Below, in pieces: positions 7,706 through 26,281 of a stretch of DNA of 64,000 nucleotides. The notes under the pieces were generated by a model. It did no database searches, was not told the DNA's origin, and saw only the letters and a program-made list of their open reading frames with translations. The position numbers and the translations under genes are program-made. Each line of letters begins with the position of its first letter. The stretch's first letter is position 1. Origin of the DNA: Eledone cirrhosa (lineage: Eukaryota); the NCBI GenBank assembly GCA_964016885.1, contig OZ024747.1, forward strand, positions 74,276,001 to 74,340,000, read 5' to 3'.

Positions 7706-7765
<60 letters not shown>

Positions 7766-7912
7766 TTTGAGTATAAGCTGGTTGTATACCAATACCTGAG
7801 TATGCAGGCTGGAGCACTCGACGAAGTGCGCAGGTTGGTTTGGTTACTCCGGAGTAATGTAAAATAAAATAAAATAAATAAGTCAAATGTTTAAAATTTG
7901 GCTTCGTTTATT

Positions 7913-7967
7913 ACTGCTATATATATTTCGGTGACAGCCATCTTTGGCTGTGACCTCTTCAGGCAGT
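7913..7967 (-). ncRNA. Type I hammerhead ribozyme
   Basis: ACTGC-CTGAAGA-GGTCACAGCC(AAAGAT)GGCTGTCACC-GAAA-TATAT-ATA-GCAGT: full core, 5-bp stem I, long stem II, palindromic short stem III. Confidence 0.88.
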
Positions 7968-8743
7968 CCGAATTAGTGTGGTAGAGACGGGTACACATGT
8001 TGTTGAGGTGTTTAACTTTGTCAATACTCTGATATGCCCAGTTCCTGGTTGGGTTGTTGTTTCACTGAGGAACTGGAATCATATGAATTTAAACAAACGA
8101 ATTTCAGCGTGAAAGGACATCTTCTCTCATTGGTCAGTTGTGAGAACATTCCTCAGTCAAAAGTCTATAGAAATTCTTTCTGAGGCAAGGCAATCTGTAG
8201 TGGTTGTTCTTGTTATTGTTAAGTACTTAACGATAGCAAAAACAAATACTACAGGGAGCCTCACCCCAGAAAGAATTTCTATAGACGTTTGACTGAGGAA
8301 TGCTCTCAAAACTGACCAATGGGAGGAGTGATCTTACAAATGTTTATAACATTGAGATTGGGTATAACACACACACATTTTATTTGATTATTTTATTTTG
8401 TTCCTTTACCATCTTATTCCTTCTACCACTTTATCATTTTTTTTAGCTGACTCCAACACCAACACCACTACCAACATAAGCGTAGAGATCAGATGTACTT
8501 AACAATAACAAGAACAACCACTGCAGATTGCCTTGCTTCAGAAAGAATTTCTATAGACTTTTGACTGAGGAATGTTCTCACAACTGACCAATGAGAGAAG
8601 ATGTCCTTTCACGCTGAAATTCGTTTGTTTAAATTCATATGATTCCAGTTCCTCAGTGAAACAACAACCCAACCAGGAACTGGGCATATCAGAGTATTGA
8701 CAAAGTTAAACACCTCAACAACATGTGTACCACACTAATTCGG

Positions 8744-8798
8744 ACTGCCTGAAGAGGTCACAGCCAAAGATGACTGTCACCGAAATATATATAGCAGT
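8744..8798 (+). ncRNA. Type I hammerhead ribozyme (second arm)
   Basis: Same as 7913-7967 with one stem II substitution (GACTGTCACC). Confidence 0.85.
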
Positions 8799-10794
8799 AA
8801 TAAATGAAGCCAAATTTTAAACATTTGACTTATTTATTTTATTTTATTTTATTTTATATATATATATATAGGGCGGTGAATTTCTCCTCTCCTTTTGAAC
8901 ATGGTAGTTTCTAATTTGTGGAAGATTGTGTTGGCTTCTCCTGCAAGTGTAGCAAGCTATTACATAGAAGCTCCTTTTGTTGTGACGTCTGACTTAAATA
9001 CCGTTGTGATGTTTATGAGAGAGTGTGTGAGATTGGTCACTAAGAATTATTATACAGCATTGTTTGATATTCTCTGATGAGTGAACTGTAGTGGTGGAAT
9101 TTGTCGAGTTATATAGAGGAATACGACGTTCTTTAATCTTGGCTACATAATGTTTGTAGTCAAAGGAACTATAAGAAATTTATAACATGTTTAATGCATT
9201 TAGGATAAAAGAAGGATAATTAAGTTAGCTGTGTGCACCAGAAATTGTTTTGCACTTGGACGAAGGTAGAGGTTTGAATTATTTTCTGATTGTTGATTAG
9301 CTTTATATTAGTACAGGTTTAACACTTTGCCCGGGCTTGTGCCTCGGAGAGAAACTTTCTAGATACACATCCCAAGGTCATTCGTGGCCTTAACGATATC
9401 GCGGTAAATGAGCGTTAAAAGATCAGCATTGCATCTTTGCTAGGTTTATTGTATTTTCAAGGAAAAAAAATAGATTGGAGATTTTATAGCTTTTTTTTTT
9501 TTTTTTAAATGTGAGGCCGTAGATGTGGAGGGGTGTAGCCAAAAGTTAAGTGCGATAATGTCGTGAGTTCGATTCCTGGACCGGGTTGTGTGTTGTGATC
9601 TTCAGAAAAACACTCCATTTCACGTTACTCCTGTATACTAAGCTACAAATAACTGCCAGCAATAGATAGGTATTTAATCGTGCGATGCACCAGTGTCCTG
9701 TCGGGGGTTCATGTACTTAATGCCACAGAAACCGGAATAATAACCGGCCAAATTCCATGCTCGAGACAAACTTGAAATTGAAAATAGCGTAGATTGGTAA
9801 TAATTCTTGACTGATTTGCTGAACATTTTTCAATTATGTCTTCTAAATATTTAAACGCACCTTTACTTGAAAACTTTAAGATATGTAGATTACAATCTTC
9901 TAAATTTATCATAGAAGTGTTATGTCTACCAATTAAATAAAATATGTCAATGTGATAACTATTGAAAACCCGATATATAAACGACACTTCTGTGTCATAA
10001 TAGTGTATTATTACTTTAAGTCCAACAGGATATTAAAATTATCGTATCATTATAGTTTCGATAACATAGAGATCATAATATCAACAAAACAGATTAATAC
10101 AATAATGATGTTAATAGAATTATCATTGCATACATATTATCACGATTCATATTTTAGATAAATTACCTGTAAATACATGAAGCCATTTTTTTTCTAATTT
10201 ACCAAACAAAATATTTTTTTATTTAATTATTTTCATCTTTCTTTGCAAAGGATGTAAACAATTTTATATTAAATTCTTAAAACTATATATTTGTTCAGAA
10301 TATTAAAATATATCCAAGAGAGAAAAAGTTTCGAAATATGAAATTCTTTACAACTTCCACAAGCGTTGACTAATCATCGTATAAGTAATTTTAATTGTTC
10401 GTTAATTTTATTATGAACAAAACAATTTAAAAAAACATCAACGATGATAACAGTAACAACAGCAACAACAACAAAAATATAAATAGATAGTGTAGATAAA
10501 CTTTCAAAATAATAATAACAATATTGGTTTCTGATTTAGGAACAAGGCCAACAATTTGACGGGAGGAGAAACTCGATTAAATCTACCCCAGTGCATTACT
10601 GGTGCTTTATTTTAATCCACCGCTCTAATAAAAAAAATAATAATAATCATTCTTTCACTAAATAATAATAATTGTTTGCAATCACCAATAATACAATACA
10701 AGTCAGGTATATAATTGACTCATGGCGTTATAACGTATAACACGCACTACCAATAAATAACACAACTCATATCTGGTACAATTTTAACCAACTG

Positions 10795-20250: not shown

Positions 20251-21523
20251 TTCTATCCTATCTATCTATCTAGGGAGGGTAAAATTCCCGAGATCCATGG
20301 ACGAGATCTCTCCAGCGGTCTCTGTCCTTCATTATCGCTGCCATGTCCTGCGTCTCCAACAGACCAGTGTCTGTCCTTAGGGCATCAACATACGTTAACC
20401 TTGGTCTTCCTCTTCCAGTGTGTATATGTAGGTGCTCCACAGGAGCACTGAGTGCAATGTCAACTCTGGATGTCGGTGAGCATGTCCAGCTAACCTCAAT
20501 CTCGTCTGTGTCACTTTTGAGCTGACCTTTGGGAGGCTCCCATACAGCTCTGAGTTATTCATCCTCAGTGTATACTGAGGAATTTATTTGCACACATTTC
20601 TGTGGTCTCTATTTAGTAAGAGCTTCAAAAGCAGGATAAACAAAATACCGGCATTATTATTTGGTCGTGATGTTTGCTGAGAGTTCTTACGGCTACCAAA
20701 TATCTTGCATTCGATCAGATAAACTCGCGTGGTATTTCTTTTACTTCACATCTTTAACAACGTGAAAACATATATAAAAATATATGATGAAGACCTTACA
20801 GGCTTATGGAATCCCCAAGAAGATAGTGGACCTGATATCACTGCTCTACACCAACACCAAAGCCCAAATCATTACACCTGATGGGATGACATAGTTCTTT
20901 GAAATACTGTCTGGAGTGCTCCAGGGAGATACATTGGCTCCCGACCTTTTTATCATCGTAGTGGACTATTGAATGCGCCTTGCACTGGAGAAACACCAGG
21001 ACTCTGGCTTTACTGTAGTACCGGCTCAGAGCAGGAGAGTTAAGGCGAAAAAGGTATCAGATGCTGAATTTGCCGACGACATAGTTTTGGTGACACATAC
21101 AGTGAAGGAGGCAGATGATTTGATGCGGGAGGTTGAGACTGTGTCGATGAGTGTGGGGCTGTGAATGAATGAGACTAAAACAAAATATCTGGTAGAGAAT
21201 GTTGAGAAGCCAGAGGGGATCACTAATGTAGGCGGGAAGCCGCTAGAATTGGTTGAGGGCTTCCTGTATTTGGGAGCAAAGATTGGGAATACGAAAGATG
21301 ATGTGGTTGAGAGGAAGAGCAAAGCCTGGGCGTCGTGCCACAGCTTCAGATCGGTGTGGAAGTCGGACCGTCGTAAAGACCTTAAAATCCGCCTCTTCAT
21401 TGCTGTAGTGGAGTCTGTGCTGCTGTACGGGTCTGAGACTTGGACACTGACCAAGAAACTCACTCAGGTGGTGGATTTGTGCTACACGAGAATGTTGAGG
21501 ATGGCTCTGAACATTCTATCCTA
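20251..21523 (-). mobile_element. RTE-clade LINE insertion with 5' inversion and 10-bp TSD
   Basis: TSD TTCTATCCTA at 20251-20260 and 21514-21523; (TAGA)n tail; - strand 20568-20270 gives MNNSELYGSLPKV..LRLAGHAHRHPE..GRGRPRLTYVD. Confidence 0.9.
20784..21513 (+). pseudogene. RTE reverse transcriptase fragment (inverted segment), three in-frame stops
   Basis: GVLQGDTLAP, FADD, FLYLG and ESVLLYGSETWTL motifs in one frame. Confidence 0.92.
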
Positions 21524-22299
21524 ACTATTATGGTTTTGTCGGTGTTTTTGCATTTCACTAGGTGTTTCTTAAATGAGGAAGCGTTATTGTTGAGGTGTTC
21601 TTTTATTCTAATGTGAAGTGGTCTGGTGGTGCTACCCATGTAGAAATTGCTGCATTTGTCGCACTCTAATCTGTATACGACGTAAGCCTGGTGGCATAGG
21701 TCTGTGTCGTCGATGGGGCAGTTTGCTAGCCTGCAGCGGCTGTCATGTCTGGTGGAGTGTCTTTTGGTTAGCTGTCCACGTAGAGAAGGTCCTGAGTGGG
21801 CTAGCTGGATATCTAGTCCCTCTCGTCTGATAGCTCTGCGGATGGCTGTTGTTGTTTCGTCACTGAAGTGTGGGAGCTTCAGGAAGCAGGTGTTTGTGCC
21901 TCGGGTGTGGTGTACTCTGTTGTTTCTGGCACGGTTCGCGGTGGGCGTCGAGTATCCGTTCAGTTTAAGTACTTCCAGGAAATGTGTGGCGTGTGTGTCC
22001 CGGTCTCTTGCGTCGGTGCATTTGTTCTGGATACGTGTAGTTCGTTCCTTATGTATCCGAACTTAGCGCTGACTTGGAGGGCTGATCTGAAATGTACGAA
22101 CAGGTCCCTGCTGGCGGCTTTTTTTATAGAAGCAGGTGTGGATGTCGCCTTCCTCTGTTACCCTGAGTTGGAAGTCCAATGGGGAAAGGGATCCGCGATC
22201 ATCGGGGTGTTCCATGCTGAACTTTATATTGGTGGCCATGCTGGAGAATGTCATGTATATTTTATCTGCTTCTATATATATATATCTCTATATATATAT

Positions 22300-25301: not shown

Positions 25302-25534
25302 AATTCCATATATGGTAAAAAAGTGATTGTCACAAGGATTGATCAAAAGTTTGTTGTTAAGATATATGATTCTATTATGGCATTTTGTGGAAGGTAGGGA
25401 TAGCTGAACTTGCCAGTAGAAGAAGGAGGGAGAGGGAGAGGAGGAAACCCAGTCAAGCGTTGAAACTGAAATCTATACAACAGTGGCTTCCGGGAGAAAA
25501 TATCCTATTATCTAGCTTCCATTAGCGGAACCAG

Positions 25535-26281
25535 CAGGCGACACCGCCGCTCAAGCAACGTAACGTGGTTCAATCCTACCCACAATGCTGAGGTGACAAC
25601 ACCTATCGGGAAAATCTTCTTTAGGCTCATCGAAAAACATTTTCCACTACAACACCGCTACCACAACATAATCAACAAAAACACCATCAAACTCTCCTAC
25701 AGCACCACACCTAACTTTGCACAAAACATCGTCTCCTCTATCAACAAAAAACTCAGCCCCTATGGAAGAAATAACCTAGACAGCAGTGGAGAGCCGACCA
25801 GGAGGTGTAACTGCCTAATGGATCCCTTTGCCCCCTCAACAACAGATGCCGAGATCGTAATGTAATCTACCAGTGCAACGTGAGGACGGACACCTCCAAC
25901 AAAGCTTATATAGGATTAACCGCTTGTGACTTCAAGACCCGGCTCTACCTACACAGACATACTTTCCGAAACCCGGCCCGGCGTCACGCCACTACACTTT
26001 CGGACAACATCTGGGACCACAAAGATAATAATATAACCTACAATCTCACTTGGAGCTTACTGTCCAGAGCCAACTCTTACACGGGAGGACGCCGTCCGTG
26101 TAACTTATGCTCGGAGGAAACAATACAAATGTTGTTTTCGACGGACCAACTCCTAAACAAGAAAGACGAACTGGTAACTGCATGCAAACACAGATTGCGT
26201 AGGACTTACCTCGCCCTCAAACCCCATAATGACCCGGGGGGTAGACAAGGGCTGAAACAGCCCCACTTGCCGACTTTGTAA
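25535..26281 (+). pseudogene. PLE linker plus GIY-YIG endonuclease, frameshifted
   Basis: WFNP..KLSYS..CNC, then NVIY..KAYIGLT..FKTR..H..TTLS..IW..CNLCSEE..LLNKKDEL. Confidence 0.88.

What the first reader, a model, noticed from the sequence alone, without database searches (positions are those of the whole stretch)
7762..8856. Pair of apparently intact hammerhead ribozymes on opposite strands in a young 370-bp inverted repeat
Seen: both arms have a complete CUGANGA/GAAA core, perfect stem I, a long stem II and a TATATA palindromic stem III, and differ by only a few substitutions and one 10-bp indel. No ORF is present. Known: PLE terminal repeats carry type I HHRs that often cleave as dimers. 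Inference: a transcript from either strand carries one ribozyme and its antisense, so it could either self-cleave or fold into a long dsRNA, a likely ADAR or siRNA substrate.
Basis: partly seen in the sequence, partly recalled or inferred. Interest (0 to 1): 0.7.

Follow-up and report, generated by a model that had tools for sequence, protein, structure and literature searches.

The report
Mirror-image Penelope retrotransposon ends with hammerheads
The two hammerhead-ribozyme motifs are real, but they are the cut-short ends of a common Penelope-like jumping gene joined back to back, a known and here very frequent insertion shape, and any RNA read through both is predicted to zip into a long double helix that would keep the ribozymes from folding.

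Summary
Observation confirmed: a 372/362-bp inverted repeat (4 substitutions, one 10-bp deletion) carries a type I hammerhead motif on each strand; the right copy has an extra stem II mismatch. It is an ordinary insertion. Both arms are 5'-truncated ends (pLTR) of a high-copy Penelope-like retrotransposon with Hydra-clade motifs (941 exact copies of the motif in this genome). Head-to-head joints occur in 42 of 87 sampled loci; 28 have both arms spanning the hammerhead. Opposite-strand pairs are in print (Schistosoma; Penelope-13_HM). The proposed cleave-or-dsRNA switch is not supported: in either read-through transcript the antisense arm comes first, the ribozyme fold costs about 80 kcal/mol, and no dimer partner exists in cis. 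dsRNA and ADAR editing stay plausible but untested. Side results: in 43 of 43 joints exactly one arm carries the ~95-nt tail, paired arms are more alike than unrelated copies (30 of 30), and 5' ends cluster at one site; this favours priming of both DNA ends from two fixed sites of one template. The scan noted this layout before on other DNA of this and other genomes. Low interest.

The parts
7708..7761 (.). (TA)n target run, left flank
   Evidence: sequence
7762..7859 (-). about 95-nt PLE 'tail', present on the left arm only; in full-length copies it runs on into the ORF start
7762..8226 (-). left arm: 5'-truncated pLTR end with tail (465 bp)
   Evidence: matches L022 element end at 95%
7913..7967 (-). 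type I hammerhead motif, family-majority sequence; predicted cut after 7918
   Evidence: 941 exact copies of a 56-nt stretch spanning it
8223..8226 (.). head-to-head junction; 4-nt palindromic overlap (GTAC) at equivalent places of the element's internal 272-bp duplication
8223..8856 (+). right arm: longer 5'-truncated pLTR end without tail; 8227-8494 forms the apparent spacer
8634..8645 (+). family-wide hot spot of 5' ends (not used by this insertion)
   Evidence: 35 of 129 fragments end here; joints in DNA contigs
8744..8798 (+). type I hammerhead motif with an extra stem II mismatch (G>A at 8773); predicted cut after 8793
8857..8870 (.). (TA)n target run, right flank; unique DNA follows

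Best explanation
This is one insertion of a high-copy Penelope-like retrotransposon with Hydra-clade motifs into a (TA)n run, made of two 5'-truncated copies of the element's hammerhead-bearing end joined head to head, likely produced in a single integration event and predicted to be ribozyme-silent if read through. Shown: family membership, copy number, frequency of the layout, one-tail asymmetry, arm similarity. Inferred mechanism: the GIY-YIG domain cuts both strands of (TA)n; reverse transcriptase primes on both DNA ends, one at the proximal RNA site (no tail) and one about 95 nt further 3' (tail); both cDNAs stop early and are joined at their 3' ends through a short overlap (here GTAC). 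The hammerhead is a passenger from the parent element, where it is under some constraint; at this locus it is decaying. A read-through RNA would be a ~360-bp duplex and a generic ADAR or Dicer substrate.
For: Copies 92-97% identical genome-wide, 2806 candidates; 941 exact motif copies. Longer copies lead upstream into an RT plus C-terminal GIY-YIG-type ORF with RWK, DKT, CxCX5C, CxxC and CxH motifs, and full-length copies are pLTR-ORF-pLTR with a hammerhead in each pLTR (definition in PMC8557442 section 11). Head-to-head joints in 42 of 87 loci (43 joints), both arms spanning the motif in 28 loci, both with intact core and stem I in 18. Exactly one tail in 43 of 43 joints versus 49% expected from solo ends (P about 2e-13 on 41 independent joints). 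Within-pair divergence 3.7% versus 6.8% between loci, lower in 30 of 30. Same layout in print: PMC8557442 Fig. 2 legend and File S1/S2 Penelope-13_HM with a hammerhead on each strand; PMC4209133 'dual min-HHRs 100-700 bp apart in opposite strands'. Two internal RT start sites bracketing the tail and cutting of both strands shown for PAc in vitro (PMC11167929). Folding.
Against: Pfam gave no RT or GIY-YIG match for the two family ORFs scanned (0 of 2 at meaningful E), so domain and clade calls rest on motifs read by eye against the published definition and alignment text; no tree was built. The unit is about 4.1 kb (L141), longer than the '<3 kb' typical of Hydra elements. Arm similarity could also come from gene conversion between arms. 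The 87 loci are all from contig C1 and were chosen by an exact motif match, so frequencies may be biased. In PAc no strand difference in RT start site was seen, which does not by itself predict a strict one-tail rule. Folding is equilibrium prediction only.
Confidence: 0.9

Rival explanations
1. Same element, different route to the inversion: one cDNA folds back on itself at a short overlap, is copied as a hairpin, and the endonuclease or a second start site resolves the other end, leaving the tail on one side only.
For: Explains arm similarity and the one-tail rule; junction overlaps of 1 nt or more in 26 of 43 joints by BLAST ends; PMC8557442 ascribes the tail to EN-mediated resolution.
Against: Fold-back from a cDNA that always begins at one fixed end predicts that one arm type is always the longer; seen: tail arm longer 10, no-tail arm longer 14, equal 5 of 29. 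16 of 43 joints hold extra letters.
Confidence: 0.3
2. One reading: a locus-specific RNA that either self-cleaves or forms dsRNA, with a regulatory role.
For: Both cores and stems I are intact; the motif is more conserved than its flanks between two subfamilies (1 of 53 vs 26 of 225 differences, P 0.036); a transcript starting inside the spacer or one arm would lack the antisense.
Against: Antisense precedes sense on both strands; 79.9 kcal/mol penalty; even solo arms give P(stem I) 0.0006 and 0.12. No dimer partner in cis; helix III all A-U (-3.2 kcal/mol). Metazoan PLE hammerheads showed no monomer cleavage and low dimer cleavage (PMC4209133) or needed the element's protein (PMC11167929). 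The right copy has already mutated in stem II. The layout recurs at many loci.
Confidence: 0.04
3. A non-autonomous unit of its own (MITE-like fold-back element or retrozyme) that moves as the whole inverted pair.
For: L074 and L105 share one junction and L062 holds the pair twice, so a pair can be duplicated.
Against: Junction positions and sequences differ among the other joints; the arms are the 3' end of the ORF-bearing element; none of the 87 loci is a head-to-tail array of short units.
Confidence: 0.03
4. Assembly artefact (fold-back read).
For: No contig piece of runs X1-X3 spans the whole stretch.
Against: Arms differ by 4 substitutions and a deletion, have different ends and lengths, and sit between (TA)n runs with unique flank; many other head-to-head joints are seen in short-read contigs.
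Confidence: 0.01

Closest known systems
Hydra-clade Penelope-like elements (Craig et al. 2021, PMC8557442; seen: passages, section 11, supplement part 2 and search hits), especially Penelope-13_HM and Hydra-1_Obim
   Same: RT with C-terminal EN; RWK, DKT, CxCX5C, CxxC, CxH motifs; (TA)n targets; sense-strand type I hammerhead near the 3' end with palindromic helix III; Penelope-13_HM is listed with an inverted 5'-truncated copy and a hammerhead on both strands.
   Different: Not the Hydra-1_Obim family: two motif strings of this hammerhead had 0 hits in the supplement and the protein differs by eye. Unit about 4.1 kb with a long 3' region; tail about 95 nt, not 30-40; helix III palindrome is all A-U; stem II is 10 bp with one mismatch.
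Minimal type I hammerheads of metazoan PLEs (Cervera and de la Pena 2014, PMC4209133; seen: parts 1-2 of 4 of the text)
   Same: Short helix I (4-5 bp), long helix II, G10.1-C11.1, palindromic helix III suited to dimers; dual motifs 100-700 bp apart on opposite strands reported in Schistosoma.
   Different: Cores here are 787 bp apart; no unpaired base between 9 and 10.1 in the predicted fold; cleavage triplet AUA.
PAc (Poseidon of Anolis) in vitro mechanism (Frangieh et al. 2024, PMC11167929; seen: parts 1-2 of 4)
   Same: Two RT start sites downstream of the hammerhead bracket the tail; AT-rich target; both strands cut; inserted copies keep an uncut hammerhead.
   Different: Here both ends lie upstream of the ORF start codon, about 95 nt apart, and both end in short T/A runs resembling the target; strict one-tail pairing was not reported in the parts read.
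Non-LTR retrozymes (bioRxiv 10.64898/2026.07.22.740005; seen: part 1 of 5)
   Same: ORF-less, PLE-derived, type I hammerhead.
   Different: Retrozymes are head-to-tail tandem units with same-strand hammerheads; this is an inverted pair with variable joints.

Membership tests
Hydra-clade PLE | Single ORF, RT followed by C-terminal GIY-YIG-type EN | tested here: met
   L143 has a 620-aa frame running from RT motifs (YRDD) to the EN (YIG); L141 covers the N-terminus with one frame change. Pfam did not detect either domain.
Hydra-clade PLE | RWK and DKT motifs | tested here: met
   RRMRWKAF and HADKTNN in L141 ORF
Hydra-clade PLE | CxCX5C linker; CxxC and CxH around E and N; no CCHH | tested here: met
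   CNCRNPESC, CKLC, CRH; one cysteine only inside the GIY-YIG core (read by eye)
Hydra-clade PLE | Insertion into (TA)n | tested here: met
   43 of 50 tail ends run into TA repeats; window flanked by (TA)n on both sides
Hydra-clade PLE | Phylogenetic placement of RT | not tested
   No tree built; reference proteins were seen only as supplement text
EN+ PLE insertion structure | 5' truncation, pLTR partial tandems, inverted 5'-truncated copy, tail at one end | tested here: met
Type I hammerhead | CUGANGA and GAAA core, U-H cut site, stems I and II | tested here: met
Type I hammerhead | Stable helix III as monomer | tested here: not met
   closing it costs 2.7 kcal/mol; normal for dimer-type PLE motifs
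Type I hammerhead | Covariation in stems | tested here: inconclusive
   Only one G-C to G-U change between subfamilies; motif more conserved than flanks, P 0.036; Rfam models gave no match
Type I hammerhead | Self-cleavage | not testable with these tools
   needs an in vitro assay
Non-LTR retrozyme | Head-to-tail tandem units each with a same-strand hammerhead | tested here: not met
Naiad PLE | N-terminal EN, no canonical hammerhead | tested here: not met
   EN is C-terminal and a canonical-order core is present

The most novel reading that the evidence does not exclude
The family gives a clean genomic read-out of PLE integration: one RNP copies the same template from both ends of a double-strand cut, always using the proximal start for one end and the tail start for the other (43 of 43), and an RNA 5' end (likely the pLTR start site) about 120 nt upstream of the hammerhead yields run-off 230/330-bp mini-copies. 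The result is hundreds of head-to-head hairpins that silence their own ribozymes and would seed dsRNA for ADAR editing in a heavily editing animal.
Probability: 0.4. Interest if true: 0.4.

Novelty: new member of a known kind. Interest (0 to 1): 0.14.

Why it matters
The locus itself is ordinary. The family matters modestly: it shows that opposite-strand hammerhead pairs in such genomes are by-products of PLE integration and should be filtered in scans, and its strict one-tail rule plus shared-template signal offers a testable constraint on the still unresolved PLE integration mechanism. Near-intact pLTR-ORF-pLTR copies exist, so a Hydra-clade enzyme could be assayed as was done for PAc.

Tried and rejected
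Rfam scan: no hammerhead model matched. The look-up of sequencing runs: no RNA holder listed; this is no evidence either way. Read laying on three contig runs of one sample not on record as RNA: no piece spans the stretch; differences reflect other family copies, not editing. Editing imprint in inserted copies: A>G 67 vs T>C 49 on the sense strand, expected share 0.58, P 0.93, no excess. The 'unselected copies' filter was mis-indexed and listed all 139 fragments, so that count is not used. Other CUGANGA..GAAA strings in the element (8565, 8656 and their mirrors) and elsewhere in the window failed the descriptor; the CUGAGGA/GAAAC hairpin at 8648-8683 has its two motifs on opposite strands and loses them in the second subfamily, so no second or scrambled ribozyme is claimed. 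Naiad assignment considered and dropped (C-terminal EN). Pfam did not detect the family's RT or EN. No shared hairpin at both RT start positions was evident from single-sequence folds of 14 read-through copies; a short palindromic hairpin follows the proximal end in most. No host gene around the locus was identified; ORFs were listed for 1-32000 only and L025 showed simple repeats. Literature searches for twin priming in Penelope gave 1 unrelated review listing; I found no paper stating a strict one-tail rule, but subscription papers on PLE structure are not searched, and bioRxiv supplements are closed.

Full report
Observation. The window is AT-rich, microsatellite-rich animal DNA on contig C7 of a 3.0-Gb assembly; that it is an octopus is my inference from these traits and from earlier scan notes, not a tool label. 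An inverted repeat joins 7855-8226 (-) to 8495-8856 (+) at 96% identity, with 4 substitutions and one 10-nt gap. Each arm holds a type I hammerhead motif: 5-bp stem I, CUGAAGA, stem II, GAAA, UAUAUAUA, with predicted cuts after 8793 (+) and 7918 (-). A descriptor found exactly these 2 hits in the window and 0 in 200 shuffles. Rfam had no hammerhead among 124 matches at E<=1. The left motif folds at -18.7 kcal/mol (z -2.80), the right at -11.5 (z -0.95) because of G>A at 8773. All four substitutions and the deletion are in the right arm relative to the family majority, while both arms share a 3-nt deletion and about ten other non-majority letters (majority is noisy at thinly covered columns).

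What it is. The arm is a high-copy repeat: 2806 candidates, 40 scored, best copies 92-94% identical over the query; a 56-nt stretch spanning the motif has 941 exact copies, 0 for the reversed control. Copies share a 3' end and vary in 5' extent. Longer copies lead upstream to an ORF ending in a GIY-YIG-type domain with CNCRNPESC, CKLC and CRH, preceded by an RT with DKT and YRDD and an N-terminal RWK. These are the features given for the Hydra clade of Penelope-like elements, including (TA)n targeting (PMC8557442 section 11). Of 6 long loci fetched, L141-L143 are pLTR-ORF-pLTR with a hammerhead in each pLTR about 4.1 kb apart; none showed an unbroken full ORF. A search with the ORF 5' part gave 290 candidates against 2806 for the end. 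Pfam detected neither domain in the two family ORFs, and no tree was built. The family is not Hydra-1_Obim (0 hits for two motif strings in the supplement).

Anatomy here. Left arm 7762-8226 (-) is a 465-bp end with the tail; right arm 8223-8856 (+) is a longer end without it. The 'spacer' is right-arm sequence. The arms meet at a palindromic GTAC found at equivalent places of the element's internal 272-bp duplication. (TA)n runs flank both sides and the right flank beyond is single-copy. The element has two kinds of 3' end, at a TTTTA run or about 95 nt further on; in full-length copies the tail continues into the ORF start.

How common. I took the first 93 of the 100 listed exact matches by position on C1, which reduce to 87 loci after merging pairs. 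42 of 87 loci have a head-to-head joint (43 joints); in 28 loci both arms span the hammerhead, and in 18 both keep core and stem I. Extrapolated, with the bias of that sample, this means a few hundred such loci. Contigs of runs X1-X3 (one sample) show further joints of this kind. The layout is in print: an inverted 5'-truncated copy and a tail at one end (PMC8557442 Fig. 2 legend); Penelope-13_HM with a hammerhead on each strand (File S1/S2); dual minimal hammerheads 100-700 bp apart on opposite strands in Schistosoma (PMC4209133).

Mechanism of origin (inferred). Exactly one arm has the tail in 43 of 43 joints, while solo ends were 19 tail and 25 no-tail (6 other); P about 2e-13 on 41 independent joints after dropping the L062 repeat and L105. 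Paired arms differ by 3.7% versus 6.8% from other loci, lower in 30 of 30 pairs with 40 or more comparable sites. Either arm may be the longer (10 vs 14, 5 equal). With the PAc result that both target strands are cut and extended and that two internal RT starts bracket the tail (PMC11167929), the simplest model is priming of both DNA ends from two fixed sites of one template, then joining of two incomplete cDNAs. Fold-back synthesis and gene conversion are not excluded. 35 of 129 fragments have their 5' end in a 12-nt stretch about 120 nt upstream of the core, in solo and paired copies alike; an RNA 5' end there would give run-off mini-copies, but ATAT overlap with the target explains part of it.

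Does the switch work? In both read-through transcripts the antisense arm is made first. Predicted MFE is about -700 kcal/mol with the ribozyme fully paired, also in the prefix that ends with the ribozyme; P(stem I) about 1e-53; forcing the fold costs 79.9 kcal/mol. Solo arms give P(stem I) 0.0006 and 0.12; monomer helix III is unfavourable and the dimer helix is -3.2 kcal/mol. Published metazoan PLE motifs did not cleave as monomers and cleaved poorly as dimers, and the PAc motif needed protein and was dispensable for insertion. The motif does look constrained in the parent lineage: 1 of 53 versus 26 of 225 differences between two subfamilies (P 0.036), the one change turning G10.1-C11.1 into G-U. 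If transcribed, the locus would be a typical ADAR substrate: hyper-editing targets inverted repeats, is very high in octopus CNS, and Penelope is heavily edited in lizard (PMC5625713, passages). Transcription and editing of this locus are untested; inserted copies show no A>G excess.

Earlier scan notes: no look-alike by sequence, but at least eight notes describe the same layout in this and other genomes; I reached the reading before opening them and treat them as unchecked.

Verdict: real motifs, ordinary insertion, new family of a known clade; interest 0.14.

Noticed in passing
family-wide; L026-L115: Exactly one arm carries the ~95-nt tail in 43 of 43 head-to-head joints.
   Followed up: yes
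window 8634-8645 equivalent: Hot spot of 5' ends (35 of 129 fragments) just upstream of a short hairpin; candidate pLTR start site or RNA 5' end.
   Followed up: partly
L141-L144: Second subfamily with near-intact pLTR-ORF-pLTR copies and C11.1>U at the base of stem II.
   Followed up: partly
window 8223-8328 vs 8495-8600; L007 495-591: The element's long 3' region holds a degenerate 272-bp duplication and an expandable (TTTTCA)n array.
   Followed up: no
window 25470-26281 (+); L023 6856-8000: Fragments of a second PLE family with Hydra-like EN motifs; another copy is inserted right after the family copy in L023.
   Followed up: no
window 21460-22062 (-): GIY-YIG domain (PF01541, E 2.8e-05) of another PLE, overlapping a LINE-like RT fragment at 21165-21524 (+).
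   Followed up: no
window 45599 (+), 53331 (-), 19782 (-), 27953 (-): Hammerhead-like cores with short stems II that failed my stem I test; likely decayed PLE ends.
   Followed up: no
window 10211-10362/11695-11846 and 5880-6062/10797-10977: Two older inverted repeats (85% and about 80%) near the locus.
   Followed up: no
L074 and L105; L062: Two loci share one junction, and L062 holds a pair twice: inverted pairs can be duplicated after insertion.
   Followed up: no
L036, L014, L018: A few tail-to-tail arrangements with a short (TA)n or no gap between 3' ends.
   Followed up: no
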